Positions 32,220 to 51,479 of a stretch of 64,000 nucleotides of DNA are shown piece by piece. Position 1 is the first letter of the stretch. The number at the start of each line of letters is the position of its first letter. The notes below the pieces were generated by a model. The model had not been told where the DNA came from and searched no databases. It saw nothing but the letters and a program-made list of their open reading frames with translations. This DNA is from Escherichia phage vB_EcoM_JNE01, in the sequence record OR670491. One strand, written 5' to 3'. The translations under genes and the position numbers were made by a program.

Positions 32220-32225
32220 ACGAAA

Positions 32226-32251
32226 GGGAGAACATATGTTCTCCCTTTTTT
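32226..32251. terminator. bidirectional terminator (palindrome GGGAGAACATATGTTCTCCC with A-run/T-run flanks)
   Basis: Perfect palindrome between the convergent thyA and fibre genes. Confidence 0.7.
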
Positions 32252-32252
32252 A

Positions 32253-34217
32253 TTATCTTAATGTTACCAATGTTCTTCCAGCAAACCTTACATCAGGTGA
32301 AGAAGGGATGCTAAAGACCACGTTAGTGCCGTTAAACGTCACGCTATCGACCTCAACTCGTGTATACACACCAGTACTCACTAGTTCCTGAATCTCTGCT
32401 GTAACGATGTTACTGGCTGTTACAGTGAGTGTATAGTAGTCACCACTAAGCACCCATGCAGACGCAGTGAATGGGTCAGTACGAACAGAACCAGAACCGA
32501 TTGGAACCCACTGTCCTTGTACTTTTTGCATTGATGTACGTTCGGTGTTGGAGTATGCAATCATACCATCTACACCTACACTGTTATCAATAGTAGCTAG
32601 TACTGGTAATTGAATACCATAACGGTTGAAACGTGTACGAATAGTACCATTATCAAGAATAGTTACGTCAGCGTAATTACCCATAGATACTTTTAAATCA
32701 GCACTTAGCAATTGAATAGTTGATTGGTTAGCTGTACTTTCTAAAGTAAAGATACCACTTTCCATTAGATTAAGATTTTTGAATCTATTACTTGCAGCAT
32801 TGAATACGGTATTAGCTGCAAAAGTACTTACACCATTGATAGTAACTGTATCAGTATTAGCATCACCTAAAACAGTATTACCTTTAACGTTCAGGTTACC
32901 ACTTGCTGTAATGTTAGTTACGTTCAAACCACCACTAAGAGTAGTTGCACCATCAACTGTCAAATCACCATGAAGTACTGTAATACCATTTCTAAATTCA
33001 GCTTGAACTTTGTTCATTGAACTTAGTGAGATAATATTACTATCACCACTAATACCTACGTTAGTATTAGTTGCATTATCAAAACGTATAGTTGGAGTAG
33101 CTGCTGGTGTTGTATTTGAATAGTAAAGTACTAATGCACCATTAGTTACACGTACACGTTCAGTTCCATTAGTCGTGAAACCAATAGTATCATCTTGTGG
33201 ATGGAAAATACCAGTATTCGGGTCAGACCATTTGGCTGGATCATTACCTGGGTTTGTTATTGGATCAAATGCGTTATTGTTAAATGACAATGCTGGAGCA
33301 GAGGCTGTACCATATGTTATACCAAAACGACCTGCACCTTTAGTTCCATCGTCATACATGGAATCACCATCACGACGAAGACCTTCAACTGCAATGTTAT
33401 CAAGCATAGTTTGAACAGTACTGGAGTTTTTAACGAACTCACGATTGTTTGCAATCATTACTGTATTATCATATAATACTGAAGCCGCTGCAATACTTGC
33501 TCTTGATTGACGCAAACGAATGTTTTTAGTATCAGTTATAATAATCCAGTCACCATCAGAAAGTGCGGTTTGGTTCATAGGTGAACCACTAGCAAATGCG
33601 TTTGTCAAATCAGTGTCTTGTGCAAGATTAACTAAACCAGTGTGACCTGTGGATGGAATTGAAGCAGTTACAATACGAGCAAATGCATAACTTACTAGTT
33701 TAGAACCAGCAACGATTGGATTGGAATCAACGTAATACATTATTTGAATCCAGTTCCCTTGACCAGTTGGGTTGGTAGGCGTAAATGTTACTGGACTTGT
33801 AGCTGGACTGTTTGCTTCAAAGTGAGCTTGTGCCGCGTCCATGATACCACGAACAACATAATAATCACCTTTAATACTTTCAGCAGGGGCTGGAAGTGGG
33901 CTTTGTGTTAGTGGAGGATCAATATCATCTTCAATAGGTGAATATGTACCAACGAATTGAAGACCACTGGTAATTGAATCAGGTAATTGTGAAGTTAATA
34001 GTTTACCATTGTTATCTAAGTTAGCAAATCTTCTATATGAAACCGTCCCATCTTCAAAATCAAGTACACCTTCAAACGCTTTCCATTCTTGGTTGTATCG
34101 AAACATACCAGACCTGATAACATCAGTTGTTTGTTTAGTTGGTGCTTTAGGTAATTCTAGAAAGGATTTACTATCTATAATTACACCGCCATCACCTCTA
34201 ATTCGATTTATACTCAT
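32253..34217 (-). CDS. tail fibre protein
   Basis: 654 aa, Thr/Ser/Asn/Gly-rich beta-type repeats (NGTERVRVTNGALVL); GAGGAAA SD. Confidence 0.55.
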   Translation of the reverse strand: MSINRIRGDGGVIIDSKSFLELPKAPTKQTTDVIRSGMFRYNQEWKAFEGVLDFEDGTVSYRRFANLDNNGKLLTSQLPDSITSGLQFVGTYSPIEDDIDPPLTQSPLPAPAESIKGDYYVVRGIMDAAQAHFEANSPATSPVTFTPTNPTGQGNWIQIMYYVDSNPIVAGSKLVSYAFARIVTASIPSTGHTGLVNLAQDTDLTNAFASGSPMNQTALSDGDWIIITDTKNIRLRQSRASIAAASVLYDNTVMIANNREFVKNSSTVQTMLDNIAVEGLRRDGDSMYDDGTKGAGRFGITYGTASAPALSFNNNAFDPITNPGNDPAKWSDPNTGIFHPQDDTIGFTTNGTERVRVTNGALVLYYSNTTPAATPTIRFDNATNTNVGISGDSNIISLSSMNKVQAEFRNGITVLHGDLTVDGATTLSGGLNVTNITASGNLNVKGNTVLGDANTDTVTINGVSTFAANTVFNAASNRFKNLNLMESGIFTLESTANQSTIQLLSADLKVSMGNYADVTILDNGTIRTRFNRYGIQLPVLATIDNSVGVDGMIAYSNTERTSMQKVQGQWVPIGSGSVRTDPFTASAWVLSGDYYTLTVTASNIVTAEIQELVSTGVYTRVEVDSVTFNGTNVVFSIPSSPDVRFAGRTLVTLR

Positions 34218-34308
34218 GTAATATTTCCTCAGAATAGATTTATATATTATGTATTTATTTTAGATAAAAGAAAAGGCCAACCATAGTTGACCTTAGAATA
34301 GTTATATA

Positions 34309-35091
34309 TTAACGAGTGCGTTCTGGAATTTCTACCCCTTCATACACCCATTTTGCTGCTAACTGTAGTTGGCGAATAGGTTCATCACCTACATCTTGTA
34401 CTGCATTAATTGCAGAAACTTGTGCATCACATTCAGCGAATACTGCATCAATCATAGCAAACAATTCATCATTTAGTTGAGTCATTTCTGCTGCTGAAAG
34501 AGTTAAAATTGCATCTGCAAGATATAAAGAAACTGATTCTTTACCAGCTTGAACTTGTGTGTAATAGTTTAGAACCATTTGACGACCAGCAATATCAGTT
34601 GGAATTAAATGATCTTTGAACTTATAACCAGCGGTTGAACGTTCAGAACGTGCACTATAGGTTCTTGCTACTAGTTCACTTTGTACATCAATGAAATTTG
34701 AATCCACATAATTGTAAGTTTTAAGAGCAGTTAGTGCTTTATAATCCCCTTGTGCTTCTTCAATAAAAGTAACTTCAGGTTGACTGGAATCTTTTAATTT
34801 GACGAATTCTAGATATTCACCAATTGCGTTAGTATTCCCGACATTTTTATTTTCCAACCACCAGAAACCTTCTTCTTTACGTACATCATCATTTCCTACA
34901 GGAGCCGGAGAGTTAGGAGAAACCGAGATGCCGTATAGTGGACGAATGTCAGAATACATGTTAAAATATTCTTTCCCTTCATCTGGGGTTGCGATAGTGC
35001 GAGGCTTCAATCCTTTTACGTTAACTGGATTGGAAATGATATTTCCGAGTTCGTAATTTTCTTGAGAGCTACCCTTAACAAATGTAAACAT
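34309..35091 (-). CDS. hypothetical structural protein (fibre module)
   Basis: ATG with AAGGTGG SD; ORF track begins at GTG 35100. Confidence 0.45.
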   Translation of the reverse strand: MFTFVKGSSQENYELGNIISNPVNVKGLKPRTIATPDEGKEYFNMYSDIRPLYGISVSPNSPAPVGNDDVRKEEGFWWLENKNVGNTNAIGEYLEFVKLKDSSQPEVTFIEEAQGDYKALTALKTYNYVDSNFIDVQSELVARTYSARSERSTAGYKFKDHLIPTDIAGRQMVLNYYTQVQAGKESVSLYLADAILTLSAAEMTQLNDELFAMIDAVFAECDAQVSAINAVQDVGDEPIRQLQLAAKWVYEGVEIPERTR

Positions 35092-35173
35092 ATAAACCAC
35101 CTTATTTTATTTTTTTTTGAATTAGTATCGAAAAACCAGTACTGATCATTGTGACCAGTACTGGGGACATCAA

Positions 35174-38100
35174 TTATGAAGTACGTTGAGCAATAAACAA
35201 GTCAATAACGTTACTTACACCATCATATACTGCTTGGTAGATAGTAACACTGTTCGCTGCTAGGTTCTGTTCACCATCCACAATAGAGTAAGATGGGTCA
35301 GCAGTTAGTACACGGTTACCAGTTGCATCTTGCTTCGCATACATGAAGATAGATGCAGCTTTACCACCACCAATCAGGCCAGCAATTGGTGCTAGTGTGG
35401 TGTTCTGGTCTAGAGTGATAAAGTACACACTAGTAGAGCCATCAGGAGTCCATGTACCAGCCGGAGCAACAGTACTGGAAGTAACTTGTGATGGGATAAC
35501 ATCATACTTCTTAGTAGTTACAGAAGTAGTTACAAAGTTAGCTTCGTCAGTAGTGAATACACCAGCAACTTCAATACCTTTTTCGAAAGTAGCTTTCTCA
35601 ATGAAAGTACTTGTTCCGTTAACTGTGATAACATCTGCTGCTGCATCACCTAGTGTTACGCTACCAGTGGTAGTTAGTGCACCAGATATATTTACAGCCG
35701 CTAGGGTACTTGTACCAGTTACTGCTAGAGTTGAACCGATTGTTGCAGTGCCAGAAGTTGTTAGGTTAGTAACAGAAGCTTCTGCTAGTGTTGCTTTACC
35801 AGTTACACCTAGTGTACCACCAACAGTTGCTGCACCAGTTACGCCTAAAGTAGTTCCAACAGTTACTGCACCAGTGAAGGTTCCACCAACACCACTTACG
35901 TTACCACTGAACTCACCATCAACGCCTTTAACTTTACCAGTACTGGTGATTGCACCAGAACCTAAAGTACCAGTGATTGTCGCTGCTCCACCAACTGTTA
36001 AGTTACCAGTTGATTGCATTGAACCACCTTTAACTAGGTTAGTACTTGTTAGTGATTTAACGTTTACATCAGCATTTGATTGGTCAACGTTGGCATATAG
36101 AACACCACCAACTGTAAAGTTACCAGTAGTAACAACGTTACCGTTAACTGTTAAGTTGTTGTTTTGTGATCCAACTGCACCAAATGTACCAGAGTTTGCA
36201 ATAACTGCTGCGTCAGTTGAAATGTTACCAACTGCGGATAGAGTTGCAGAAGCTTCAATTGCATATGGTTCTAGTGTTTGACCACTTACGTCGATATCGG
36301 CGTTAATGCCACCTTCAACACGTAGTTTACCAGCAATAAAAGTATCAGGGAAAATCTGAACAGTTTCAGGTTGTTCACCAACTTTAACACCAACTACTAG
36401 GTTTGCACCAGTTTTAACTGTACCAGTTTCTAGTGAACCAGAAGTTACTTTGCCAGTTACTTTTGCATCAGCAGCTACAGTTAGTGCATCACCGGAAGCG
36501 GAGGACAATGCCAATGATGGAGCAGAAACAGCACCAGTTACACCTAAAGTGCCACCAACAGTTGCGTTACTTGTTACACCTAGTGTACCACCGAATGTAC
36601 CGTTTGTATCACTGTGGATAGCAGCAGAAGTAGACAAACTCTTCGCAACGATATCAGATGTTGTTAGGTCTAAACCACCAGCAGGAGTAAATGTACCGCT
36701 TACTGTTAGGTCATTAGTGAAAGATGAATTACCAGCCATAGTTAAACCAGCAGTACCAACAATACTTGTTGCAGAAACTGCACCAGTATCTAGTGAACCA
36801 GTTGTTGCTTTACCAGTTACACCTAAAGTATTACCTAAAGTAACAGCACCAGTTGTAGATAAAGTACCAGCTACAATTGCATTACCTTTAACATCAAGAC
36901 CAGTACCAGAAGCATTGGACAATGTTAGGGACGGAGCAGAAACTGCACCAGTTACACCTAGTGTACCAGCGATAGTTGAGTCACCACCAATAGTTGCCCC
37001 CGCAGTGCTCTTAATTGTGGTTGCCACGTCAAGGCTGTTTGCAGTAATATCAGAAGTAGATAGATCCAAACCACCCACTGGAGTGAATACACCGTTAACC
37101 GTTACAGCATCAGCAAATGTTGCAGCACCAGTTACACCTAGTGTACTACTAAATGTTCCAGATGTTGCAGAAACTGCACCAGTATCTAACGAACCAGTAG
37201 TTGCTTTACCTGTTACACCAAGAGTACCACCAACAGTTTGATTTCCGGTAACAGTAAGAGTCCCAGTTTGTGCATCAACAGTTGTGATTTTACCTGAACC
37301 ACTGATATCAGTAGTAGATACACCACCACTTAGAGTACTCAAACCAGTTGCTTTTAGGGTTGTCGCAACATCAAGACTGTTTGCTGTAATGTCTGCACCA
37401 CTTAGATCCAAACCACCTTCAGGAATAAATTCACCTTTAACAGTTAGTTTTTGAACTACTGAATCACCAGTTACGGTTAGAGCAGAAGAAGTTAAACCAC
37501 CGTTCAAAGTTGCTGCACCAGTAACACCAAGTGTACCACCGACAGCCGCATTAGAAGTTACTGAAGCGTTTTCTAGAGTTGCAGTACCGGAGATATTTGC
37601 ACCTTGTGCAGTGATACTACCAGTATCAACACGTACACCACCAGCTACAACTTGAATACCACCTGTATTAACAGTTAGTTTATTACCAACAGTTGCTGCA
37701 CCAGTTAGAGTGCTTGTACCAGCTACAGACAAGTTACCGGAAACGGCTGGGCTACCAGTTACATTACCAGTTGTTAGAACTAGATCAGCACCAACAGTAG
37801 TATTACCGACAGAAGCTAAAGTGTTTGCAGTTACATCAGAAGCAGATAGGTCAAATGTACCAGCTACTACCAAGTCACCACCGATATTTGCACCACCAGT
37901 AGTAGTGATTGATTTAGCACTAACATCAGTTGTTGCTAGGTCAATTGCACCTGGAGTTACAGTTCCGGTTACAGTTAAATCACCTGTTACTTTAGTGTTG
38001 CTTGCAATTTCCACACCAGTTTCGTTAGAAATGGTTGGAGTTACCAAGGAAACAGCAGTTGCTTGACCAGATACTGTTAGTGAAGTTCCAATTACTGCAT

Positions 38101-41100
38101 CTGCACTTGTGCGTAGACTTGTTAGAATTGATGGACCTTCAACAGATAGCTCAGTTGCATTAACTGCATTAATAGTTGCAGTAGTAGATTTAAGTACTGG
38201 AAGTACGTTAGCATTAACTAAGTCAGTACTTTGAATAATACCAGCAGAAGATAGTGATTTAACACTAACATCAGCAGCACTAAGATCAACAGTGCCAGCT
38301 ACTACTAAGTTACCACCAATGTTTGCACCTTCGGTTGTTGTAATAGATTTAGCACTAACATCAGTAGTGGTTAGGTCAATAGAACCTGGAGTTACGGAAC
38401 CAGTCACTACTAGATTACCAGTTACGGTAGTGTCGTTTTTAATTTCAACACCAGCAGCATTTGCAATTGATGGAGTAGTTAGTGAACCAACGGTAGCATT
38501 ACCAGTTACATCAAGAGTAGTACCCACAGATACTGCACCAGTAGCATCGAGTGAAGCTACATTAGATGCACCACTAACATTTAGTGCGGTTACATTTGCA
38601 GTTCCAACAGTTGCTGTGGTACTATTAAGTACTGGAAGTACGTTTGCATCAGTTGCGTTAGTAGAAGTTACAATACCTGGAGTAGTTAAAGATTTAACAC
38701 TAACGTCTGCTGCACTAAGATCAACTGTACCAGCTACTACTAAGTTGCCACCGATAGATGCACCAGCAGTTGTAGATATGGATTGAGCACTAACATCAGT
38801 CGTTGATAGATCAATTGCACCTGGGGTAAGTGTACCAGTGACAGTTACATTATCAGTAAAAGTAGTGTTACCGTTAATAGTTGGTGAAGTTAGAGTTCCA
38901 GTTGATAATGAACCAGTAGTTGCTGCACCAGTTAAATTCATAGAAGAACCAGCGATAGCTACACCTTCGATATTACCAGTTACTTTCAAAGAAGAACCAG
39001 AAATAGCTGCTGCACTAACGTTACCAGTTGCAGTGATTGCACCAGCACTTACATCGGCTAGGGTACTTGCACCAGCAACACTTAGGGTTGTGGTTACATC
39101 AACTTTATTAGGAGCAATATCAAGACCATCAACGTTAGCATCTGCTACAACACCAGTTGTAGTTCCAGTTACTACTAGGTCTTTAACTGTTACTGTTTGA
39201 CCAGTTACTGTCACATTCCCGCTAAATGCACCCGCTGCACCACTTACATCACCACTGAATGTACCGTTCACACCACTTACATTACCAGTAAATGTACCAT
39301 CAACACCGCTCACATTACCACTGAACTCACCACCAACGCCTTTTACGTTACCAGTACTGGTAATTGCTCCAGAGTTTAGTGCTCCAGTCACGTTAGCAGT
39401 TCCACCAACGAGTAAGTTAGCATTAATAGTTGCACCACCAGTTGATTCTAATGATGAAGATTTAATTTCACCAGCCGCAATAACGGAATTAGGTGTTAAA
39501 TCCTGACCACTCACATCAACTGTTAGACCAGTTACGACACCAGTGAAGTCTACATCATTAAGAATGGTTTTACCATTAACTTTTAGACGAGGTGTTGCTG
39601 GGCTTTGTGTTGAGTTACCTAGAATTTCTACATAATCTAATTTGTTTAGACCTTTACCTGTAATACCATAGGTCGCAAGAGACTCATCACCAAAAGTTGC
39701 AGTTTTTTGTACAGTAAGAGTTACCGGAGCCATAGATTCAGACTGGATTTCGTTCTGTAGTAGAACTGTTGGACGTTGACCTGCTGCGGAATAACCAAAA
39801 CCTAGTTTAACGTCAGCATTTGCAACGTTTTGACCAAGGGTAATGGCTTTAACAGTTGCAGTTGTGTTGTTACCAGTGATGTTTGCACCTAATGTAACTG
39901 CTCCGTTAAGACCAGTAGCACCACTTACGTTCAAACTGGTAGCCTGGATATCATCTAAATCAAATGTACCACCTAATGTTCCAGAAACATTGATGTTATT
40001 GAAGTTTGCAGTACCAGTACTTTCAATATTAGGTAATGTTGCAGTTCCAGTTACTTCTAAATCAGTGACCTTAGTTAGTCCTTTGGTTACTTCGAGTAAA
40101 GGAGTACTAGGATCTTGTGTTAAGTTACCACTAATAGTTACATAATCTAATTTGTTTAGACCTTTACTTGCGATACTATAGGTGGAAAGAGATTCATCAC
40201 CAAACGTCGCACTTTTTAGTACGTTTAGGTTAGTTGGTGACATTAATTCGGTTTGAATTTCGTTTTGTAGAACTACAGTTGGGCGAAGCCCTGCCGCTGA
40301 ATATGTAAAACTCAAGCGATCAGTACTACTTGCTGCGTTAGCACCCAATTTAATGTCTTTGAATGTCGCAGTTGTATTGATACCAGTGATGTTTGCACCT
40401 AATGTAACTGCTCCGTTAAGACCAGAAGCACCACTTACGTTCAATGAAGTTGCATTAATGTCATCAAGACTGAATGTACCACCAAGAACACCATTTATGT
40501 TAATATCATTGAAGTTAGCTGTACCAGTACTTTCAATATTAGGAATAGTAGCAGAACCAGTTACTTCGAAATCAGTTACTTTAGTTAAACCTTTAGTAAC
40601 TTCAAGTAAAGGAGTAGTTGGTGATTGAACTGTGTTACCACTAATAGATACATAATCTAATTTGTTTAGACCTTTACCTGTGATACCGTAAGTATCGAGA
40701 GACTCATCACCAAATGTTGCAGTTTTGAGTACGTTTAGGTTTGTTGGTGACATTAATTCAGATTGAATTTCGTTCTGTAGAACAACTGTAGGTCGTTGAC
40801 CTGATGCTGAATAGGTAAAACTCAAGCGATAAGTACTGCTTGCTGAGTTTGCACCCAATTTAATGTCTTTGAATGTCGCAGTACTATTGATACCAGTAAC
40901 GTTAGCACCAAATGTAACAGCACCTTGTAAACCAGAAGCACCACTTACGTTCAATGTAGTTGCATTAATGTCATCAAGGCTGAATGTACCGCCTAGTGTA
41001 CCACTAATATTAACATCTTTGAAGTTTGCTGTACCAGTGCCAGTGATAGTTTCACTAGAAATTGCAGTGATTGTTGCTTCATTTGCAGTTAATTTATCAA

Positions 41101-41536: not shown

Positions 41537-41570
41537 ATAGTTCCCTCCATTTTGGGTTATTAAAATACCA

Positions 41571-41594
41571 TGTTTATGTTTATATATTTAGTTG
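41571..41594 (-). promoter_or_regulatory. candidate late-promoter motif (minus sense AACTAAATATATAAACAT)
   Basis: Nearly the same motif upstream of both giant fibre genes. Confidence 0.35.
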
Positions 41595-41629
41595 AATTAA
41601 TTGTTTTGGAACTCTCAAAGATAATTATT

Positions 41630-41674
41630 TAGGGAAAAGAAAAAGCCAACACGAGGTTGGCTTTCTTTTATTTG
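41630..41674 (-). terminator. terminator hairpin (AGCCAAC/GTTGGCT) between the giant fibre genes
   Basis: Stem-loop with U-rich flanks on both strands. Confidence 0.55.
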
Positions 41675-44600: not shown

Positions 44601-46561
44601 CCTAATGTACCACCAACTGTAGCATTACTCACTACATGAAGACCAGTACCAGATGCACCATTTAGTGTTAGATACCCTGCCGATGCTGCACCAGATATAG
44701 TTGCTGAACTTGCATTAACAGCAGCCAATGTGGTTTCACCAGCAACACTTAGTGTTGTTGTTACATCAACTTTATTAGGAGCAATATCAAGGCCATCTAC
44801 GTCGGCTACGGCGGTTACACCAGTTGTGGTTCCAGTTACTACTAGATCCTTAACAGTTACTGTTTGGCCTTGTACGGTTACATTACCATCTAAAATACTA
44901 TCTCCAGTTACACCTAATGTTCCACCAAGAGACGTTCCACCTGTGACTTCTAGATAGCCAGCAGTGGTTTTGCCAGTAGAAGTTAATGTTGTTCCCTGAA
45001 TACCAGACGTTGCAGTTACGGAGTTAGGAGTTAGATCCTGCCCACTAACATCAACAGTTAGGCCAGTAACAGTTCCTGTGAATTCTACATCACCTAGAAC
45101 CGATTTACCAGCAACAGAAAGTTGTGGAGTTCCTGGAGCTTGAGTAGCGTTACCAGCGATTTCTAGATAATCTAGTTTGTTTAGACCTTTACCTGTGATA
45201 CCATATGTTGCTAGTGAAGCATCACCAAAGGTTGCAGTTTTCTGAACAGTTAATGTAGCAGGAGACATTAATTCAGATTGAATTTCGTTCTGTAGAAGAA
45301 CAGTTGGGCGTTGACCAACGGCAGTATAAGCAAAACCAACTTTGGTATCAGCACTTGCAGATGCTGGACCTAGGTTTAGTGCTTTAATATTTGCAGTAGT
45401 GTTAGTACCACTGATATTACCACCTAGAGTTACAGAACCTTCAAGACTAGTTAGGCCAGATACTTTTAGTGTTTGTGCTTCGATATCACCTAAACTGAAT
45501 GTACCACCAAGAACACCACTTACGTTAATGTTATTGAAGTTTGCAGTGCCAGTACTTTCAATATTAGGAATAGTAGCAGAACCAGTTACTTCGAAATCAG
45601 TTACTTTAGTTAAACCTTTAGTAACTTCAAGTAAAGGGGTAGCTGGTGATTGAACTGCGTTACCACTAATAGTTACATAATCTAATTTGTTTAGACCATT
45701 ACCAGTGATACCAAAAGTACTTAAAGATGCATCACCAAAAGTAGCAGACTTAAGAACAGTTAGGGATGCTGGAGACATTAGCTCGGACTGAATTTCGTTT
45801 TGTAGAATTACAGTTGGGCGTTGGCCTGGTGCGGTATAAGTGAAGCTTAAACGGTAAGCACTGCTTGCGGAGTTAGCACCGATTTTGACATCTTTAAATG
45901 TTGCAGTTGTGTTGATACCAGTGATGTTCGCACCTAGAGTAACAGCACCCTGTAGGCTACTTTGACCAGACACAGTTAGGGTAGTTGCGTTTACATCAGA
46001 AAGACTGAATGCACCACCTAGTGTACCACTTATGGTAACATCGTTAAAGCTGGCTGTACCAGTACTATTAATGTCGGTTGCATTTAAAGTTGCAATAGTT
46101 GCTTCGTTTGCAGATAGTTTATCAAATGCAGCAGTAGTTCCTGCGTCAGCATTAATATTACCTTTAAAAGTTGAAATTCCATCAACTGATAGTGAGTCAA
46201 CAGATGTTGCTTTCAAATCAACATTACCAGCAGTTTGACGAATATTACCACCAAATGAAACACCAGAGTTAAAAGTTGCTGCGGAGTTAATTGTAGCAGT
46301 ATCAGTACCTGGTGCTACTGCACCAATCACAGTGCTACCTACCACTTCAACACCACCATTAAGAGATGCTTTACCAGCTACATCTAGGGTAGAAGTGATA
46401 TTAGCAGTTGCTGCTTCAATTGCAGTGAATGTAGCATTTGCAAAAGAAACTGTACCATTTACGGTAAGATTCTTATTGAATACTGCATCACCTTTAACTA
46501 ATAGATCTTTACCGACTACAGCACCACCAGTAATATCTAGATCAGTTTTAATCGAGTACAT
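41675..46561 (-). CDS. giant repeat-rich tail fibre protein, paralog (1628 aa)
   Basis: Same N-terminus (MYSIKTDLD) and C-terminal ~100 aa as gene 1; two copies of the ~165-aa repeat; AATGGAGGG SD. Confidence 0.7.
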   Translation of the reverse strand: MYSIKTDLDITGGAVVGKDLLVKGDAVFNKNLTVNGTVSFANATFTAIEAATANITSTLDVAGKASLNGGVEVVGSTVIGAVAPGTDTATINSAATFNSGVSFGGNIRQTAGNVDLKATSVDSLSVDGISTFKGNINADAGTTAAFDKLSANEATIATLNATDINSTGTASFNDVTISGTLGGAFSLSDVNATTLTVSGQSSLQGAVTLGANITGINTTATFKDVKIGANSASSAYRLSFTYTAPGQRPTVILQNEIQSELMSPASLTVLKSATFGDASLSTFGITGNGLNKLDYVTISGNAVQSPATPLLEVTKGLTKVTDFEVTGSATIPNIESTGTANFNNINVSGVLGGTFSLGDIEAQTLKVSGLTSLEGSVTLGGNISGTNTTANIKALNLGPASASADTKVGFAYTAVGQRPTVLLQNEIQSELMSPATLTVQKTATFGDASLATYGITGKGLNKLDYLEIAGNATQAPGTPQLSVAGKSVLGDVEFTGTVTGLTVDVSGQDLTPNSVTATSGIQGTTLTSTGKTTAGYLEVTGGTSLGGTLGVTGDSILDGNVTVQGQTVTVKDLVVTGTTTGVTAVADVDGLDIAPNKVDVTTTLSVAGETTLAAVNASSATISGAASAGYLTLNGASGTGLHVVSNATVGGTLGVTGAVTLGNSLGVSGKATAGSLEVTGAATVGSLTAPTISGNTTFANDVTITGTLTPSGIDLSTTDVSAASLTTTGNVTVGGSLAVSGAIDLSSADVTAKSITATNPSTFGVVNASSVVASGDVSGGTITTTGAAKVGTLTSTGVVSGSRLSSTTATISTSVTTPTVQAGASGAGTLNLASNVVAAKDLTVTGVFTPQGGLDLSSVDITSNSITTTEGATIGGNLSVAGTVDLSGADVSALSFVSTDALKTNTFPKLSSTDSTLGAAKATTLNVSGESTVANINTSNISASGSLDVVGASTLAAVSATAIDASSVAATGAISGASFTAPGATVEISKSTNVTGDFHASGTLTAGAIDLSTTDVSVKSLNSLGNAHVAGNLTVDGTFDLSGTNLQAATLASTGNTTVGADLVLTTGVITGAPVISGNTTVGGTLGVTGTTSLAGLTAGASTLSSASVTTTLGVTGTSTLGVVQAGATSVSTLSTSGKATAASLEVTGATVAKGNVTVEGTLIPQGGLDLTGADVSANSLSSSTTLSVTGLSTLSGGISTADINATSLTASGTVGAGVLSSTGNTTVGGTLGVTGATTVADLTASGAVKTGTSFTVGTPLAVQPETVHIVPDTYIAGKLRVDGGINADIDVSGQTLEPFAIAADSTVSAVGNITSGATMIAKAATIGDSGSLNNNLTVNGNVVTNGDFTVTGVLNAQLNQADSDVAVKSLTATNNVNAGTSISAGTTITATGKITGGSLETGSTLAVTGLASLNGGVAVTGAATFSENLSVQSEISTASITTTGLATLASVAVTGSATFTGTLTANGNVVLGDAAADTITVNGTATFKENVVIDKALTVTGALNTTDADFTTSTVITKKYSVLPTSVVASTASVSGTWTPDGSSNVYRLTLDQNTTLAPITGLIGSGEACSVYIYVTPTVSDAVLTIPAEYAVVSGQVSSVVNQVSIIQVVYDGFSTVFDTFIAQRV
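45080..46080 (-). repeat. two tandem ~500-bp intragenic repeats in giant fibre gene 2
   Basis: Repeat core near 45160 and 45675; some ~130-nt stretches near-identical to gene 1. Confidence 0.5.
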
Positions 46562-46603
46562 TTAGTTCCCTCCATTTGAATGATTATAAACATAACCATT
46601 CTC

Positions 46604-46630
46604 GTTAATATGTATATATTTAGTTTATGA
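46604..46630 (-). promoter_or_regulatory. candidate late-promoter motif (minus sense AACTAAATATATACATAT)
   Basis: Shared motif. Confidence 0.35.
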
Positions 46631-46633
46631 TAT

Positions 46634-46666
46634 AAAAAAACCAGACCTGATACTAAAGGTCTGGTT
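46634..46666 (-). terminator. terminator hairpin (ACCAGACCT/AGGTCTGGT)
   Basis: 9-bp stem downstream of the 46674 gene stop with A/T runs. Confidence 0.6.
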
Positions 46667-46673
46667 ATATTTT

Positions 46674-47570
46674 TTATTTACCGGATATTACAACCTTGCC
46701 ACTAAATGCAACATAGGATGTGAATATAACATTACCACTAGCATCAATTTGAGTTTCAGCAGTAACAGCTTCAAAAGGTGCAAGAGCAGTACTGCCTTGT
46801 ACTTTATTACCGTATAGAGAAACGTATAGATTGTCAGGGGTTTGTTTATGATCTGCTGCTGGAATAGTTAGAGTGAATTGATCACCGGAAGCTACCCAAT
46901 CAGCCTGATTAATAAGTTTACTGTATGGTACTGTCATAGTTGTTGCTCCTATAATATTAATTTTAACACTTGCGTATTCTGAAAGCTGACCAACTACTTC
47001 TAGAGTTATATCACCAATACCAGAAACTGTAACGTTAGTTTGGAATACAGAATCCAAATCGACATCACCTGGGTCACCTTGCAATTGAACCATAATATCA
47101 GCACCGCGACCATGAATAGATTCAGGAAGAGTGTATGTATATTTGTCAGATGAACCTGGCTCTAATACAAATGCTGAAACTGGAACAGTATGTGTGGTTA
47201 CATAAGAACTATCACTACCAGGAGTAGATGATTTAAGTGGTTTCCATACACCAAGGTCTTTAATATAAATCTGAAGTGTATTTTCAGCATCAACTAGGAA
47301 ATACACATCACCATCGGTTCCCAATGCATCAGCAGGAGCTACAGTACCGCGAAGAATACCACCAGCACCACCGCCACCATGTGCGTTTAAATATCCCAAG
47401 GTTACCAGATGGGTATTAGCTGTTGGGTCAGCCGCAGAAATTGGAAGAAGACCAGTTCCTGTATAGTTTTGAATTTGCACAACACTACCATTCGTAGTGA
47501 TTTGTGCACCATTTTTACCAAGTATGAAGGTCTTCTTCATGGTTCCTTCTAAATTAGAAAAAACTGCCAT
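46674..47570 (-). CDS. tail spike/fibre protein with conserved N-terminal anchor module and Gly-rich hinge
   Basis: N-terminus MAVFSNLEGTMKKTFILGK paralogous to the 49727 module; start set to the second ATG (AAGGAG 9 nt upstream). Confidence 0.5.
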   Translation of the reverse strand: MAVFSNLEGTMKKTFILGKNGAQITTNGSVVQIQNYTGTGLLPISAADPTANTHLVTLGYLNAHGGGGAGGILRGTVAPADALGTDGDVYFLVDAENTLQIYIKDLGVWKPLKSSTPGSDSSYVTTHTVPVSAFVLEPGSSDKYTYTLPESIHGRGADIMVQLQGDPGDVDLDSVFQTNVTVSGIGDITLEVVGQLSEYASVKINIIGATTMTVPYSKLINQADWVASGDQFTLTIPAADHKQTPDNLYVSLYGNKVQGSTALAPFEAVTAETQIDASGNVIFTSYVAFSGKVVISGK

Positions 47571-47584
47571 TTTAATCATCTCCT

Positions 47585-49378
47585 TTATGATAGAGTTATA
47601 TATGTTATTGGCTGTGCCGCTTTTAATAATGCACCTGCTGCTGTAGCAGTTACAATTGGGTCGGCAATGTCAACGCGGTATGCGTTTGATACTACGTAAA
47701 CTGCTCTGGTGATGTATGTTAATAAATCTTCACCATTTGCCCCAGCACCTGTAATGAGTATTTGTGTTCCAGCAGCTTTCGCATATTGGTTATCACCCCA
47801 TGATACGCCTAACGCCTCTATATATGTTTGTCCTACAACCGTTTGTCGTATGGTGTCGTATTTTCCGAAGAAAGAACCACCAACTGTTACAATATATTTA
47901 CTCCCTGACTGGTTGTGAATAATTGTACCTTGTGGGAAATAACGACCACCAGGGAACGTGTCATATGGAACATAATATTGTTCAACTACAGGTATCAGTA
48001 CTGGACCACGGTGACCAGTTCCGTCAATATCAGTTGGTACTTTAAAGTTGTTAGATGATTGGTCAATTCTATCCACATACATTTTAGCAAAACTATATTT
48101 GGATATGTTACAATCATCTTGGACTACACAGTTTGTCCAGTTTGTATATGTATATTTAGAACGGGTATACAAACCACCACCTTCACCTTCTGTTGACAAG
48201 TGTTGACCAATAACATCTAACTCTTTAGTGCGAATATCACTAAACTTAGAAGCTGATGGAAGACCACGCCATTGAATCTTAGTACAAGTTACATTGGATA
48301 ATTCAGTATTGTTTGTCCAGTTATCAGAACAAGATGTATAAACTAAAATAGTTGATTCTGGAATATACAAATTAGATAATTTAAAGTTACGTGGAGGTCC
48401 AGCAAATTTACCAGAAGTTACACCCCAGTTTATAGAAACCATACGTGTAGTTACTGATGCGTCATTTAATAGATGTCCAGTAAGACCATCGACAATAAAG
48501 TCTTTTGAACCATAAGTGATAACACCACAGGTAGTAAGGCCAGTACCAGTCGATACCAATGAGGATGGATATACCTCGTTATCTAAAATTTTAAAATCTT
48601 TACCAACTTCAACGTGAATACACTGACGAACGTTATAAACTCTATTGTTTTTAATAACAAAGTTTTTAACATATTGTGAATCAGGAGCATCAACGTCATA
48701 TGGACCAGAACCCGCTACCCCAATTCCTATACCCCAGTTTGATAATGGGATTGGTGCATTAGTACCGTCAACGTTTTCAATAATATTTCCTTCAATTACA
48801 AAACCATCAGGATAATGAGAGTTGATAACGTTTAGTTCGATTGCATCCCCATAGATATCGTGAATATGGTTATAAGAATAACGCCCTACTGTCATTTTTT
48901 CACCCGTGCCTTGTTGAAGAACTCCATACTTACAAAGAGTCATTTCATTAAAGCAGAAATCAATAGTGCCAGTTTGAGTCATACCTTGCATTAAAAACGC
49001 AGCAGTACTGGTAATGTTTATAAATTTATTAAAATAAAATTTACCATCACCACCAAAGAATTTAAGATAACAACCAGTTAATGTAGCAAATTGTATATGG
49101 CAGTTGATTACAGAAATCATAGTACCGCCGTTACCTGTTATTGTTCCACCAAACCAAGTTATATCTTCCAAGTATAAGGCTGTTTTAATTCTATAATTAC
49201 CTTTACCTTGAACTTGAATTTTATTCTCTTTTGCATATACTGCACAGGCATTTACTGCCGCAGTGTCATCTGTTTCACCATCACCTGCTGCCCCAAACTC
49301 TTCAGGAGTTACATAGAACTGTGCTTGTTGAAGTGTTCCTCCTGTTATCAATCCAATATAATCTCCGTCCGTTAACAC
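47585..49378 (-). CDS. tail spike catalytic part: right-handed beta-helix polysaccharide depolymerase (pectate-lyase-like)
   Basis: FGAAGDGETDDTAAVNAC N-terminal signature; GTG start without SD; probably the C-terminal part of one gene with 49302..49727. Confidence 0.6.
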   Translation of the reverse strand: MLTDGDYIGLITGGTLQQAQFYVTPEEFGAAGDGETDDTAAVNACAVYAKENKIQVQGKGNYRIKTALYLEDITWFGGTITGNGGTMISVINCHIQFATLTGCYLKFFGGDGKFYFNKFINITSTAAFLMQGMTQTGTIDFCFNEMTLCKYGVLQQGTGEKMTVGRYSYNHIHDIYGDAIELNVINSHYPDGFVIEGNIIENVDGTNAPIPLSNWGIGIGVAGSGPYDVDAPDSQYVKNFVIKNNRVYNVRQCIHVEVGKDFKILDNEVYPSSLVSTGTGLTTCGVITYGSKDFIVDGLTGHLLNDASVTTRMVSINWGVTSGKFAGPPRNFKLSNLYIPESTILVYTSCSDNWTNNTELSNVTCTKIQWRGLPSASKFSDIRTKELDVIGQHLSTEGEGGGLYTRSKYTYTNWTNCVVQDDCNISKYSFAKMYVDRIDQSSNNFKVPTDIDGTGHRGPVLIPVVEQYYVPYDTFPGGRYFPQGTIIHNQSGSKYIVTVGGSFFGKYDTIRQTVVGQTYIEALGVSWGDNQYAKAAGTQILITGAGANGEDLLTYITRAVYVVSNAYRVDIADPIVTATAAGALLKAAQPITYITLS

Positions 49379-49727
49379 TTGACAAAATATCTTTATTAAC
49401 GTATAGTGATTTTACCCATTTACCATCAATTTTTAGAAATATATCAACAATCCCTTCACTGTTAGTTTGGAAATATGTATAATTATTTTTACCGATATCA
49501 TCTGAAGGGATGGCTTCACCAAACATTACGGTTGGGTGATCTTCTAGATACTTAACATTGACAGCAGAATCGGCATCAACCGCAGACCCTACTTTAACTG
49601 GTAGAAATTTTTCACCAAATGAATCCTTTATTGAAATGGAATCATCTGAAAAACTAATCAAGGCTCCTTTTTTACCAAGGATGAATGAGGGCTGCATGGT
49701 TCCTTCTAAATTAGAAAAAACTGACAT
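49302..49727 (-). CDS. tail spike N-terminal anchor module (frame-separated from the depolymerase)
   Basis: MSVFSNLEGTMQPSFILGK; GGGGG SD; overlaps the depolymerase ORF by 77 nt in another frame. Confidence 0.5.
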   Translation of the reverse strand: MSVFSNLEGTMQPSFILGKKGALISFSDDSISIKDSFGEKFLPVKVGSAVDADSAVNVKYLEDHPTVMFGEAIPSDDIGKNNYTYFQTNSEGIVDIFLKIDGKWVKSLYVNKDILSSVNGRRLYWIDNRRNTSTSTVLCNS

Positions 49728-49741
49728 AATCAATACCCCCG

Positions 49742-50869
49742 TTAGATGTTATCGCTAATTGGTTGTATTGGTGATTGCCATGCCAAAGTACAGATAATTT
49801 TAATTTGACCATAAGCACTGTTGTTTACAGAGTCGTTGAAAATACAAGAGATAATTTCATCTTTATCAGAAACAGTGTGGTTAACTTCGTTAACAATAAA
49901 ACGCATTTTACGGTTAATGTCAAAATAATCAACTGGAGCAATTACAGTACCCCCAATATCTTCTTGTGCTTCACCACCGAAACGAACAAACATTTCGTTA
50001 ACTGGTAAATCATAAGCTTGTTGTACATCAACATCGATATTAGTAACTAGGTATCCAGCAGGACATGTACCAATAACTAGAACGGCGTTAGTCCATGAAT
50101 GATCAATAGTGTTTACAATAACCAAGGAATCTTTACCTGGAGCACCTGTAGCACCTGGTAGACCTTGTTCACCTTGAATACCCTGTTTACCACGGAATTC
50201 AATACCAGTACTCCACTCTTTGGAAGGCGGGGTTGTGGTGTTTACAATATCAACATAGTATAGTTTACCATCTGTGGTATTATAGAAGCAGTAGTCTTCA
50301 GGAAGGTCAGTAATACTAGGGAATACATCACCAGTACTATCAATATGGAATCGTCCACGTAGACCTTGTGGGCCACGGAATTGTACACCATCACTCCAAG
50401 TTGCAGTTACTGATTGATAGAAATAAACTTTACCATCAGTTGTATTATAGAATGTATAGTTGTTTACGAGGTTAGTAGTTGGGAATGTATCACCAGAGCT
50501 ATCAATATGGAATGATTTACCAGCTTCACCAGTATCACCTTTACCAAATTCTACAACGTTCCAAGTACTATTACTGTCAGTTGCGGCGTTGGTTTTGAAA
50601 TATAGCTTACTAGTTCCGTTTGCAAGACTAAGATAGCACCAGCCAAGTTCTTCACCTACTCGGAATGATTCATCTGGGATTTCAAAACCTATCTCGTTTG
50701 GATAAAAGTTTTTACCATTTGTACCATCTCTACCAACAACAAGACCTAGATCTTGAATTGTGTTGTCAGCGTAAGTTACGATCAAATGTCCAGCAGAGTT
50801 GATAACTAAACTCTTTATGCCGGAATTATTGCATGAACTACTAGTCCCATTATTAAATGAAATTGTCAT
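49742..50869 (-). CDS. tail fibre protein with short collagen-like G-x-y runs
   Basis: Start set to internal ATG with AAAGGAAA SD; motifs GPQGLRG and GKQGIQGEQGLPGATGAPG. Confidence 0.5.
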   Translation of the reverse strand: MTISFNNGTSSSCNNSGIKSLVINSAGHLIVTYADNTIQDLGLVVGRDGTNGKNFYPNEIGFEIPDESFRVGEELGWCYLSLANGTSKLYFKTNAATDSNSTWNVVEFGKGDTGEAGKSFHIDSSGDTFPTTNLVNNYTFYNTTDGKVYFYQSVTATWSDGVQFRGPQGLRGRFHIDSTGDVFPSITDLPEDYCFYNTTDGKLYYVDIVNTTTPPSKEWSTGIEFRGKQGIQGEQGLPGATGAPGKDSLVIVNTIDHSWTNAVLVIGTCPAGYLVTNIDVDVQQAYDLPVNEMFVRFGGEAQEDIGGTVIAPVDYFDINRKMRFIVNEVNHTVSDKDEIISCIFNDSVNNSAYGQIKIICTLAWQSPIQPISDNI

Positions 50870-50981
50870 TATTATTTCCTTTTTATAAGTGAATCGTAAT
50901 ATACCAATATTTATCAGTACAAAATACATTTCGACATCATTAATAAATAAATGAAAGTTCACTACTAAAAAGGGCTTAACA

Positions 50982-51479
50982 ATGGCATTAAGATCAAAAG
51001 ATTTCCTATTCAAGCGTAAAGCTAAAGACGGTTCATGGCAAGAGTTCCCTGAATCTGACAGTTGGTATCCATCAAACCTAGATTATCTCTGGAATGAGCA
51101 AACACTACCTCTTGCAAGTGGTGGTTACTATGGAAGTACAACTGGGTTACATACAATTTCCTTTACCCTGCGTAACTTCATCGGTAGAATTTATGTACTA
51201 GCAACTCTAGCAAGTAACCCGTCAGATGATGATTGGTTCCCTATTAAATTTACCGAAAGCTGCAATTATTATCTTGAATTCACTGATACTGTTATTCTAA
51301 ACCCAAATGGCGGTGATCTTATCAGAGAACAAGGTACAACTGGTACATTTGCTGAAACATTAACTGGTAACTTTACCTATCTCAAAATTGGTATCGACCG
51401 TGACTACATTAGTAAGTACCCTTCTGATGTTCAGAAGAGTTTAGCTGGTAAATTAGAACAAATTTTAATAAACTATTAA
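50982..51479 (+). CDS. hypothetical protein (structural region)
   Basis: 165-aa ORF. Confidence 0.5.
   Translation: MALRSKDFLFKRKAKDGSWQEFPESDSWYPSNLDYLWNEQTLPLASGGYYGSTTGLHTISFTLRNFIGRIYVLATLASNPSDDDWFPIKFTESCNYYLEFTDTVILNPNGGDLIREQGTTGTFAETLTGNFTYLKIGIDRDYISKYPSDVQKSLAGKLEQILINY

What the first reader, a model, noticed from the sequence alone, without database searches (positions are those of the whole stretch)
32253..50869. Module of at least six distinct fibre/spike genes on the minus strand
A fibre gene, two giant fibres, two spikes sharing an N-terminal anchor module (one with a pectate-lyase-like beta-helix depolymerase) and a fibre with collagen-like G-x-y runs are arranged head to tail, each with its own terminator and AT-rich upstream motif. 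This suggests an elaborate multi-receptor adsorption apparatus.
Basis: partly seen in the sequence, partly recalled or inferred. Interest (0 to 1): 0.55.

Follow-up and report, generated by a model that had tools for sequence, protein, structure and literature searches.

The report
Jumbo coliphage tail-fibre gene cluster
This is the tail-fibre and spike gene cluster already known from 121Q/RaK2-type jumbo phages (here essentially coliphage vB_EcoM_JNE01); it is ordinary for that family, except that its slime-degrading (colanic acid) spike gene is split by a one-base insertion that turns out to be widespread in nature.

Summary
Window 32253-50869 holds seven minus-strand virion genes, read as eight ORFs because one gene is frameshifted. 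The window matches Asteriusvirus vB_EcoM_JNE01 (exact proteins) and is 98.7% identical to phage Turkey5.

The core of five genes (375-aa collagen-like protein, 298-aa protein, giant fibre, DUF4376 protein, 654-aa fibre) is syntenic across Rak2-like jumbo phages. All five homologues were found in CBB virions by mass spectrometry. This lineage adds a second giant fibre with a different tip and a spike whose body is about 68% identical to the solved phi92 gp150 colanidase.

Corrections:
- There are five transcription units, not one per gene; the first three genes have no terminator between them.
- The 298-aa protein is a conserved short fibre with Ig-like domains, not a beta-helix spike.
- The substrate is colanic acid, not capsule or LPS.
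- 47585-49378 is not a whole gene. A 1-nt insertion at 49367 cuts the 120-aa anchor from the enzyme body.

That insertion is present in all 11 JNE01-type sequences examined, and the body ORF stays open with mostly synonymous variation. How or whether the body is expressed remains unresolved.

Verdict: a known kind of module, with low-to-moderate interest.

The parts
49742..50869 (-). 375-aa collagen-like trimeric virion protein; first gene of a three-gene unit
   Evidence: phrog_13565 'tail protein', E 4e-210. G-x-y runs at 50708-50734, 50513-50539, 50348-50374 and 50129-50191. 79% identical to 121Q gp574, 71% to RaK2 ORF062 and 59% to CBB_228. Homologues were detected by virion MS in phAPEC6 (gp253, 65.6% coverage) and CBB.
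49302..49727 (-). 141-aa stub ORF: the 120-aa N-terminal anchor of the colanidase spike plus 21 out-of-frame residues
   Evidence: 34% identical to the N-terminus of the 298-aa protein and 67.5% to the N-terminus of 121Q gp573. This exact sequence is WOL22755.1 of phage JNE01 and is indexed in 55 blocks of the collection.
49367..49367 (-). One-base insertion (C on the minus strand) that frameshifts the colanidase gene: AAC GGA C GGA GAT
   Evidence: Absent in Turkey5 and in 121Q and vB_Ec-M-J. Present in all 10 independent metagenome/SRA loci L005-L014. Coordinate checked.
47585..49378 (-). Colanidase body (beta-helix, Pfam WcaM family). This is the mechanical ORF; gene callers start it at TTG 49351 (588 aa).
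   Evidence: 6E0V (phi92 gp150) E 4e-235, alignment covering residues 5-596. phrog_6117 'colanic acid degradation' E 5e-248. PF27800 on the called genes. 88.7% identical to the 121Q gp573 body.
46674..47570 (-). 298-aa conserved short-fibre protein: anchor, trimerisation hairpin and two Ig-like domains
46639..46666 (-). Terminator ending the three-gene unit
   Evidence: 10-bp stem followed by U7; -15.2 kcal/mol.
41675..46561 (-). Giant fibre B (1628 aa): the extra paralogue, with a type-B tip
   Evidence: phrog_4549 'tail fiber' E 1.8e-185. Two ~170-aa N-terminal repeats. Tip 72% identical to vB_Ec-M-J gp304 but 51% to fibre A. No counterpart in 121Q.
41640..41666 (-). Terminator after fibre B
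   Evidence: -13.4 kcal/mol.
35174..41536 (-). Giant fibre A (2120 aa): orthologue of 121Q gp571, phAPEC6 gp256 and CBB_226
   Evidence: phrog_4549 E 2.7e-222. Residues 541-848 match the phiTE tail fibre 9CUY_g at E 3e-24. Three ~170-aa repeats (126-636) and three ~145-aa repeats (851-1285). Tip 69-72% identical to 121Q gp571 and MJ gp303. T+G+A+V+S make up 62% of residues.
35136..35164 (-). Terminator after fibre A
   Evidence: 13-bp stem; -19.9 kcal/mol.
34309..35091 (-).
   Evidence: PF14301 E 9e-5, just below the Pfam cutoff. phrog_17968 'virion structural protein' E 4e-52. The positional homologue CBB_225 was detected in virions at 68.5% coverage. Only 60% identical to 121Q gp570, so it varies together with the giant fibre.
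34273..34294 (-). Terminator after the 260-aa gene
   Evidence: -10.9 kcal/mol.
32253..34217 (-). 654-aa short fibre: conserved N-terminal ~470 aa and an exchangeable C-terminal beta-sandwich
32222..32249 (.). Bidirectional terminator between thyA (+) and the 654-aa gene (-)
   Evidence: 12-bp stem flanked by A/T runs; -16.6 kcal/mol.
50880..50887 (-). Late-promoter-like TATAAAAA upstream of the 375-aa gene. Similar motifs lie at 46609-46616, 41577-41584 and 34237-34244.
   Evidence: Such motifs occur within 60 nt of the start in 4 of the 5 unit 5' regions, and in 1 (before 19207) of the other 27 upstream stretches listed outside the module.

Best explanation
This is the conserved tail-fibre/adsorption gene cluster of an Asteriusvirus, a Rak2-like jumbo myovirus. 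The window is phage vB_EcoM_JNE01 or a near-identical isolate. The cluster lies between thyA and baseplate-proximal genes and is read from the minus strand as five units, probably late-transcribed.

Shown:
- A five-gene core is shared by all Rak2-like phages: the 375-aa collagen-like protein, the 298-aa anchor plus Ig-like protein, a giant repetitive fibre, a DUF4376 protein, and the 654-aa short fibre.
- Its CBB homologues are all virion proteins.
- Asteriusviruses add a colanidase spike: the same roughly 110-aa anchor fused to a phi92-gp150-type beta-helix.
- This lineage also carries a second, older paralogous giant fibre with a different C-terminal tip.

Inferred mechanism:
- The anchor is an N-terminal docking peptide followed by a collagen-type trimerisation hairpin. 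It plugs trimeric proteins into a common site near the baseplate.
- The colanidase clears colanic-acid slime.
- The two giant fibres, each estimated at about 90-130 nm, make the first reversible contacts through distinct tips.
- The short fibres make close contact with the cell surface.

In this genome a 1-nt insertion separates anchor and enzyme. The virion most likely carries an anchor-only stub, as RaK2 does naturally. The enzyme is then at best made separately at a low level.
For: Identity and synteny:
- Exact protein matches to JNE01.
- 98.7% identity to Turkey5 over 100% of the query, and about 50% of the query aligned at about 77% identity to 121Q, G17 and phAPEC6.
- Same gene order in 121Q, vB_Ec-M-J, CBB and (reduced) RaK2.

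Virion location in relatives:
- CBB_224-228 were all detected by MS (homology).
- phAPEC6 gp253 and gp256 were detected.

Fibre nature:
- PHROG tail-fibre and tail families.
- Match to the phiTE tail fibre 9CUY.
- Internal repeats and T/G/A/V/S-rich composition.
- A shaft motif shared by the 654-aa protein and the giants.
- Exchangeable C-terminus of the 654-aa family.
- Two tip types.

Anchor:
- 34% identity between the two copies.
- Anchor-only proteins of 113-115 aa, and the anchor fused to other bodies of 705-1027 aa.
- Collagen-type trimerisation unit.

Enzyme:
- 6E0V at E 4e-235, with its activity described in PMC13450770.

Operon structure.

Frameshift is real and widespread. JNE01 was sequenced by Illumina and assembled with SPAdes.
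Against: - No direct data exist for this phage: no proteome, imaging or receptor information.
- phAPEC6 MS did not list the homologues of the 654-aa, 260-aa and 298-aa proteins or of the colanidase, and RaK2 MS missed gp062.
- AF2 monomer models of trimeric fibres are of limited value (pTM 0.37-0.58).
- The giant fibres might be the sheath or capsid 'hairs' rather than baseplate fibres.
- Purifying selection on the split enzyme body sits uneasily with the idea that it is barely expressed.
Confidence: 0.8

Rival explanations
1. The giant fibres are not baseplate long tail fibres. They are the curly 'hairs' or whiskers seen on the sheath (and capsid) of phAPEC6, 121Q, fEgEco12 and CBB. On this reading much of the module encodes decoration or entanglement fibres rather than a classical receptor-triggered apparatus.
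For: - CBB whiskers measure 119 +/- 10 nm, while its baseplate fibres measure only 28.6 nm, and the whisker genes are unassigned.
- phAPEC6 has fibres at three rings on the sheath plus six short baseplate fibres.
- 1553-2120-aa trimeric beta-fibres would be roughly 90-130 nm long. This is my estimate, scaled from T4 gp34/gp37 at about 0.055-0.06 nm per residue (own knowledge).
- The 300-650-aa proteins of the module fit fibres of about 30 nm.
Against: - GAP32 has the giant-fibre homologue, yet whiskers were not reported for it.
- The shaft is homologous to the baseplate-attached phiTE fibre.
- Nothing locates the N-terminus of the giants.
- This reading is not exclusive of a role in adsorption.
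Confidence: 0.3
2. The colanidase gene here is simply a recently inactivated pseudogene. A successful JNE01-like clone lost virion-bound colanidase, neutrally or because the spike is dispensable or costly on its hosts. The open body ORF and synonymous bias are then leftovers and recombination imports.
For: - The insertion lies in non-repetitive sequence and is absent from all other lineages.
- Most polymorphism in the body comes from mosaic patches in L008 and L010. Without them only 3 synonymous and 1 non-synonymous sites remain.
- The possible restart codons ATT and TTG are weak, with GGAG 5 or 11 nt upstream.
- vB_Ec-M-J also has this gene split, at another place.
Against: - The ORF is open in 11 of 11 sequences over 588 codons.
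- Polymorphisms are 82 synonymous to 11 non-synonymous, against an expected non-synonymous fraction of 0.77.
- The allele is spread over at least 7 haplotypes and many studies.
Confidence: 0.4
3. The frameshift is a sequencing or assembly error, and the gene is really intact.
For: A single-base difference from the 99.9%-identical Turkey5 gene.
Against: - The same insertion occurs in 10 independent ENA and Logan assemblies made with different assemblers, with other differences between them.
- Five protein variants of the frameshifted stub exist.
- JNE01 was sequenced by Illumina at 46x.
- The site is not a homopolymer.
Confidence: 0.02

Closest known systems
Fibre cluster of other Rak2-like jumbo phages: 121Q gp569-574, phAPEC6 gp253-258, CBB_224-228, GAP32_218-222
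   Same: Same position (thyA on one side, three plus-strand virion genes and the gp15-like gene on the other), same order and orientation. Every gene is homologous, at 48-89% identity to 121Q and 25-59% to CBB. The CBB products were shown in virions by MS.
   Different: CBB and GAP32 lack the colanidase. 121Q and phAPEC6 have one giant fibre where this window has two. Here the colanidase is frameshifted. RaK2 keeps only three genes at this locus (ORF062, anchor-only ORF061, ORF060) and has moved its fibre arsenal elsewhere.
Phage phi92 gp150 colanidase (PDB 6E0V/6E0W) and phi92's multivalent adsorption apparatus
   Same: The body is roughly 68% identical over 590 residues. gp150 hydrolyses colanic acid. 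Both phages combine several fibre types.
   Different: The N-terminal attachment part is unrelated: here it is the Rak2-like anchor. gp150 is a single polypeptide, whereas here the gene is split. phi92 is a 148-kb rV5-like phage.
Branched tailspike complexes: CBA120 TSP1-4, G7C, RaK2 gp526-534, phiKp24
   Same: The logic is the same: short conserved N-terminal modules dock exchangeable C-terminal enzymatic or binding bodies onto a common scaffold.
   Different: Those systems use T4 gp10-like / CBA120 D1-XD domains. The anchor here gave no such match, and only one enzymatic spike is present.
T4 long tail fibre proximal subunit gp34 (the name carried by GenBank annotations of the giant fibre)
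   Same: A very long, repetitive, presumably trimeric beta-structured fibre protein.
   Different: No sequence match to any T4 fibre chain in the PDB at E <= 1, and no Pfam family. There are no gp35/36/37-like partners in the cluster. The name is not supported.

Membership tests
Rak2-like jumbo-phage fibre cluster (121Q gp569-574 / CBB_224-228) | Synteny: minus-strand cluster between thymidylate synthase and the three plus-strand virion genes, NUDIX and the gp15-like gene | tested here: met
Rak2-like jumbo-phage fibre cluster (121Q gp569-574 / CBB_224-228) | Each core gene homologous to its counterpart | tested here: met
   The 260-aa protein matches CBB_225 only weakly (25% identity, E 7e-6) but shares DUF4376 and its position.
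Rak2-like jumbo-phage fibre cluster (121Q gp569-574 / CBB_224-228) | Products are virion components | not testable with these tools
   Shown for CBB (all five) and phAPEC6 (two) in the literature. No data for this phage.
phi92 gp150-type colanidase tailspike (Pfam PF27800 WcaM) | Full-length homology of the beta-helix body to a solved colanidase | tested here: met
   6E0V E 4e-235, residues 5-596 aligned to 36-623; PF27800 on the called genes.
phi92 gp150-type colanidase tailspike (Pfam PF27800 WcaM) | Attachment domain and enzyme body on a single polypeptide | tested here: not met
   The 1-nt insertion at 49367 splits the gene. It is intact in Turkey5 and 121Q.
phi92 gp150-type colanidase tailspike (Pfam PF27800 WcaM) | Hydrolysis of colanic acid | not testable with these tools
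   Activity is known for gp150 only.
Branched tailspike systems with T4 gp10-like / CBA120 D1-XD docking domains | N-terminal domain with the gp10-like or CBA120 head-domain fold | tested here: not met
Collagen-like phage fibre proteins | Runs of G-x-y triplets adjacent to trimerisation units | tested here: met
   Four runs of 3-7 triplets. Related hairpin units. No Pfam Collagen hit at E 0.01, so the runs are short.
T4 gp34-type long tail fibre proximal subunit | Sequence homology to T4 gp34 | tested here: not met
   No PDB or Pfam match.
Programmed +1 ribosomal frameshift (prfB/Ty type) | Slow or rare zero-frame codon in the A site at the shift point | tested here: met
   The zero-frame codon after GGA is CGG, used 0 times in 12,862 codons of this window. 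The next codon is AGA, at 2.95 per thousand.
Programmed +1 ribosomal frameshift (prfB/Ty type) | P-site tRNA can re-pair in the +1 frame, or an upstream Shine-Dalgarno stimulator is present | tested here: not met
   GGA to GAC does not re-pair, and there is no SD-like sequence upstream (AGTGTTAAC). Only Ty3-like out-of-frame decoding or a GGA-to-GGA hop would work.
Programmed +1 ribosomal frameshift (prfB/Ty type) | Shift site conserved while the downstream frame is under selection | tested here: inconclusive
   11 of 11 carriers have an identical site, and synonymous changes dominate (82:11). After removing the mosaic sequences the count is only 3:1.

The most novel reading that the evidence does not exclude
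The split colanidase is not a dead gene but a maintained arrangement. One possibility is low-level +1 recoding at GGA-CGG-A, which would restore exactly the wild-type protein (...VNGGDYIGL...) and give a mix of stub-only and enzyme-bearing sites. The other is deliberate uncoupling, so that the enzyme is released as a free colanidase at lysis while an anchor-only plug (as in RaK2 ORF061) occupies the docking site.
Probability: 0.12. Interest if true: 0.6.

Novelty: new member of a known kind. Interest (0 to 1): 0.3.

Why it matters
Receptor-binding modules decide host range, which is what phage-therapy and biocontrol work on E. coli O157 and APEC needs to know. GenBank labels all these JNE01 and Turkey5 genes 'hypothetical'.

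This analysis separates the likely scaffold parts (375-aa protein, anchor, N-half of the 654-aa protein) from the likely specificity parts (two giant-fibre tips, the 260-aa protein, the C-terminus of the 654-aa protein). It also identifies the enzyme's substrate as colanic acid, the slime behind the mucoid phage-resistance phenotype.

The widespread natural frameshift means that the common JNE01-type phages probably lack a virion-bound colanidase, while Turkey5 has one. That is a ready-made natural pair for testing what the spike contributes.

Tried and rejected
- Sequencing error as the cause of the frameshift: rejected.
- Turkey5 as a revertant: the 4.2-kb alignment is star-like and can be rooted on the Turkey5 branch, so neither reversion nor ancestry can be claimed.
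- Exact-pattern scans for both alleles found nothing in IMG/VR and in JGI metagenomes, and megablast against complete E. coli genomes found nothing. Allele frequencies therefore rest on the ENA/Logan index only.
- The 9-mer AAATATATA as a shared motif is not enriched (3 matches against 1.8 expected). The looser T4-late-like motif is positional evidence defined after the fact.
- The terminator count for the whole region is no higher than in shuffles (13 against 12.0). Only their placement at gene ends and their stem strength matter.
- Homology of the giant fibres to T4 gp34, and of the anchor to CBA120/gp10 domains: not found.
- The cluster of differences from Turkey5 in fibre A (residues 1006-1056) is not gene conversion from neighbouring internal repeats.
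- L008's divergent body segment is not imported from a 121Q-type allele.
- The paper on the phage NST1 colanic-acid enzyme (PMC4292498) is not held.

Full report
**What the sequence is**

The region 32000-51100 is 98.7% identical over its full length to Escherichia phage Turkey5. About half of it aligns at about 77% identity to 121Q, G17, phAPEC6, PBECO4-like and other Asteriusvirus jumbo phages. Five of its proteins are letter-for-letter WOL22749-22756 of phage vB_EcoM_JNE01. JNE01 is a 355,583-bp phage isolated on E. coli O157:H7 from chicken-farm sewage and sequenced by Illumina with SPAdes assembly. The window is therefore JNE01 or a near-identical isolate.

**Checking the observation**

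The cluster runs from a bidirectional terminator shared with thyA (32222-32249) to the divergent start region at about 50.9 kb. It holds seven genes:
- a 375-aa gene (49742-50869);
- a colanidase gene split into two ORFs (49302-49727 and 47585-49378);
- a 298-aa gene (46674-47570);
- two giant genes of 1628 aa (41675-46561) and 2120 aa (35174-41536);
- a 654-aa gene (32253-34217).

The claimed relationships hold:
- The giants are 71% identical over their first 500 residues and about 37% over the rest.
- The 298-aa protein and the ORF upstream of the depolymerase share about 105 N-terminal residues (34% identity, E 2.6e-18).
- The depolymerase body is a beta-helix enzyme.
- The 375-aa protein has four G-x-y runs of 3, 3, 3 and 7 triplets.

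'Each with its own terminator' is wrong:
- Strong hairpin-plus-U terminators (-10.9 to -19.9 kcal/mol) follow the 298-aa gene, each giant, the 260-aa gene and the 654-aa gene.
- The first three genes are separated only by 14-nt spacers carrying Shine-Dalgarno sequences. There are therefore five units.
- The total terminator count for the region is no higher than in shuffles (13 against 12.0). Placement at gene ends, not number, is the evidence.

The AT-rich motif is partly real:
- ATATATA[AC]A, a 7/8 match to the T4 late promoter TATAAATA, lies 18-57 nt before the start of four of the five units. It is absent before the 260-aa gene.
- In my survey of 33 upstream stretches, 27 lie outside the module, and only the one before 19207 has such a motif within 60 nt of the start.
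- Several plus-strand genes instead carry sigma-70-like TTGACA/TATAAT boxes.
- The motif was defined after looking at the data. The exact 9-mer AAATATATA is not enriched.

**What the genes are**

A five-gene core is syntenic across Rak2-like phages of nine host genera. It comprises the 375-aa protein, the 298-aa protein, a giant fibre, a DUF4376 protein and the 654-aa protein. In Pectobacterium phage CBB the counterparts CBB_228 to CBB_224 were all found in purified virions by mass spectrometry, with 13, 5, 10, 16 and 22 peptides respectively (homology). In phAPEC6, gp253 (the 375-aa homologue, 65.6% coverage) and gp256 (the giant fibre) were detected. phAPEC6 MS did not list the other four homologues, and RaK2 MS missed gp062.

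The giant fibres:
- They belong to phrog_4549 'tail fiber' (E 1e-185 to 1e-222).
- Residues 541-848 of the 2120-aa protein match the tail fibre of phage phiTE (9CUY chain g, E 3e-24).
- T, G, A, V and S make up 62% of residues, with almost no Cys or Trp.
- They are built from repeats. The 2120-aa protein has three ~170-aa units at 126-636 and three ~145-aa units at 851-1285; the 1628-aa protein has two ~170-aa units.
- There is no match to T4 gp34, so the GenBank label 'long tail fiber proximal subunit' is unsupported.
- The last 130 residues define two tip types. The 2120-aa tip is 69-72% identical to 121Q gp571 and vB_Ec-M-J gp303. The 1628-aa tip is 72% identical to vB_Ec-M-J gp304 but only 51% to its neighbour.
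- The 2120-aa gene is therefore the family orthologue. The 1628-aa gene is an older extra paralogue present in a subset of Asteriusviruses, not a fresh duplication. Its promoter-like motif and ribosome-binding site are shared with its neighbour.

The 654-aa protein:
- It has a conserved N-terminal ~470 residues (51% identical to RaK2 ORF060 over residues 1-339).
- Its C-terminal part is replaced by other, longer sequences in several relatives that cover only 56-73% of the query and reach 1101 aa.
- Residues 439-487 share a shaft motif with the giants.

The 298-aa protein:
- It is a full-length conserved family of 284-309 residues, with 78 cluster representatives found. It is not a variable beta-helix spike.
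- This is followed by two Ig-like domains.
- BFVD matches are to viral collagen-like and tail-fibre proteins, and to a 375-aa viral protein of the same length as the collagen-like gene product here.

The anchor:
- An exhaustive HMMER search with the 120-aa anchor found only 18 representatives.
- They include anchor-only proteins (113-115 aa), proteins of 288-299 aa like the 298-aa one, and the anchor fused to bodies of 705-1027 aa.
- The hairpin sub-motif recurs three to six times in other proteins.
- RaK2 itself has an anchor-only ORF061 (115 aa, 55% identical) at the syntenic site, flanked by homologues of the 375-aa protein (71% identity) and the 654-aa protein.

Per-gene identity to 121Q:
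- The 375-aa (79%), 298-aa (75.5%) and 654-aa (79%) proteins, and the colanidase body (89%), fall inside or within a point of the 76-97% range of the flanking genes.
- The giants (48-52%), the 260-aa protein (60%) and the colanidase anchor (67.5%) are the fast-evolving parts.

**The depolymerase**

The body aligns over residues 5-596 with the crystal structure of phage phi92 gp150 (6E0V, E 4e-235, roughly 68% identical). It falls in phrog_6117 'colanic acid degradation' and Pfam PF27800 WcaM. gp150 is reported to hydrolyse the glucose-fucose linkage of colanic acid (PMC13450770). The expected substrate is therefore colanic-acid slime, not K-capsule or LPS.

**The frameshift**

In Turkey5, 121Q and most relatives this is one 713-aa gene. 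Here a single extra C (minus strand, window 49367; AAC GGA C GGA GAT) shifts the frame. The result is a 141-aa stub, made of 120 native anchor residues plus 21 out-of-frame residues, and a body ORF that gene callers start at TTG 49351 (588 aa).

This is not an error:
- The exact stub is indexed in 55 blocks of the collection, and four further 141-aa variants exist.
- All ten independent ENA and Logan loci I fetched carry the insertion.
- The exact 588-aa body is on 31 contigs, whereas the intact 713-aa form of this allele is absent from the 15-billion-protein collection.

Variation among the 11 carriers:
- The body ORF is open in every one.
- Its polymorphic sites are 82 synonymous to 11 non-synonymous, against an expected non-synonymous fraction of 0.77.
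- Most of these sites come from mosaic patches in L008 and L010 that may have evolved in an intact gene.
- Without L008 the count is 9:1. Without both it is 3:1 (p = 0.04).

Other features of the site:
- The zero-frame codon right after the shift point is CGG, which is used 0 times in 12,862 codons of this window, followed by rare AGA.
- Skipping the C would restore exactly the wild-type sequence.
- However, GGA cannot re-pair in the +1 frame, and there is no upstream Shine-Dalgarno stimulator.
- GGAG lies 5 nt before an in-frame ATT and 11 nt before the TTG, so weak independent initiation is possible.

I cannot decide between three readings: a recent tolerated loss (about 0.4), separate low-level expression of the body, and recoding. 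The last two together make up the 'maintained arrangement' reading, at about 0.12. The alignment is star-like, so Turkey5 may be either ancestral or a revertant.

**How it most likely works**

Shown: homology, synteny, modular anchor, enzyme family, two tip types and virion location in relatives.

Inferred:
- The anchor docks trimeric proteins to a common site near the baseplate.
- The colanidase clears slime.
- The two giant fibres make first contacts through different tips. I estimate them at about 90-130 nm by scaling from T4 fibres (own knowledge).
- The short 654-, 375- and 298-aa fibres act close to the surface.
- The 260-aa DUF4376 protein co-varies with the giant fibre and is a virion partner rather than a discarded chaperone.

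A serious alternative (about 0.3, not exclusive) is that the giants are the 119-nm 'hairs' on the sheath of CBB, phAPEC6 and 121Q, whose genes are unassigned.

**Comparison and novelty**

The module is a member of the known Rak2-like fibre cluster. It works like the branched tailspike systems of CBA120, RaK2 gp526-534 and phiKp24, but it fails the membership test for their gp10/D1-type docking domains. Multi-fibre jumbo phages and this very cluster are already in the literature. What is new is the functional parsing of genes that GenBank calls hypothetical and the natural, widespread split of the colanidase.

Interest is low to moderate (0.3).

Noticed in passing
window 49367 (within 47585-49727, minus strand): A one-base insertion splits the colanidase spike gene. 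It is present in all 11 JNE01-type sequences from independent isolates and metagenomes but absent in Turkey5 and other lineages. The body ORF stays open, with mostly synonymous variation.
   Followed up: yes
window 49663-49727 and 47506-47570 (minus strand): The first ~65 nt of the anchor-type genes are 83-88% identical at the DNA level to the homologous genes of Rak2-like phages from many host genera, although their proteins are only ~50% identical. This may be a recombination linker for swapping bodies.
   Followed up: no
whole window (19 long genes): The arginine codon CGG is never used in 12,862 codons; CGT accounts for 245 of 349 Arg codons. The only place I found CGG in a translated frame is immediately after the frameshift site.
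   Followed up: partly
window 58988-63973 (minus strand): This 1661-aa ORF matches only positions 1678-3324 of a 3324-position virion-protein profile (phrog_10938). The real gene, a ~380-kDa protein like phAPEC6 gp245, runs off the window end.
   Followed up: partly
window 35343-36281, 36450-37241, 42786-44102 and others (plus strand): Long antisense ORFs (up to 438 aa, rich in P/V/T/A) lie inside the giant fibre genes. They are most likely stop-free shadows of the repetitive ACN/GTN/GGN codon usage, not genes.
   Followed up: no
window 56560-56667 and other plus-strand upstream regions: Near-perfect sigma-70 promoters (for example TTGACA-17-TATAAT before the ClpA-like gene at 56668) contrast with the TATAAATA-like motif before the fibre units. 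This suggests two promoter classes, early/middle versus late.
   Followed up: partly
window 38369-38521 (codons 1006-1056 of the 2120-aa gene): 25 of the 50 amino-acid differences from Turkey5 in this protein fall in one 51-residue patch. It is not copied from the neighbouring internal repeats, so it is probably a recombination patch from another lineage.
   Followed up: partly
L003 (vB_Ec-M-J) 15268-20188 and 21221-23363: In vB_Ec-M-J the second giant fibre is annotated as two ORFs (gp305 and gp304, which together align with the 1628-aa protein). Its colanidase is also split, at a different place. These are either real disruptions or assembly errors.
   Followed up: no
L015 (RaK2) 4717-7889: At the syntenic locus RaK2 keeps only homologues of the 375-aa and 654-aa proteins plus a 115-aa anchor-only gene. 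An anchor without a body is therefore a natural state in Alcyoneusvirus.
   Followed up: partly
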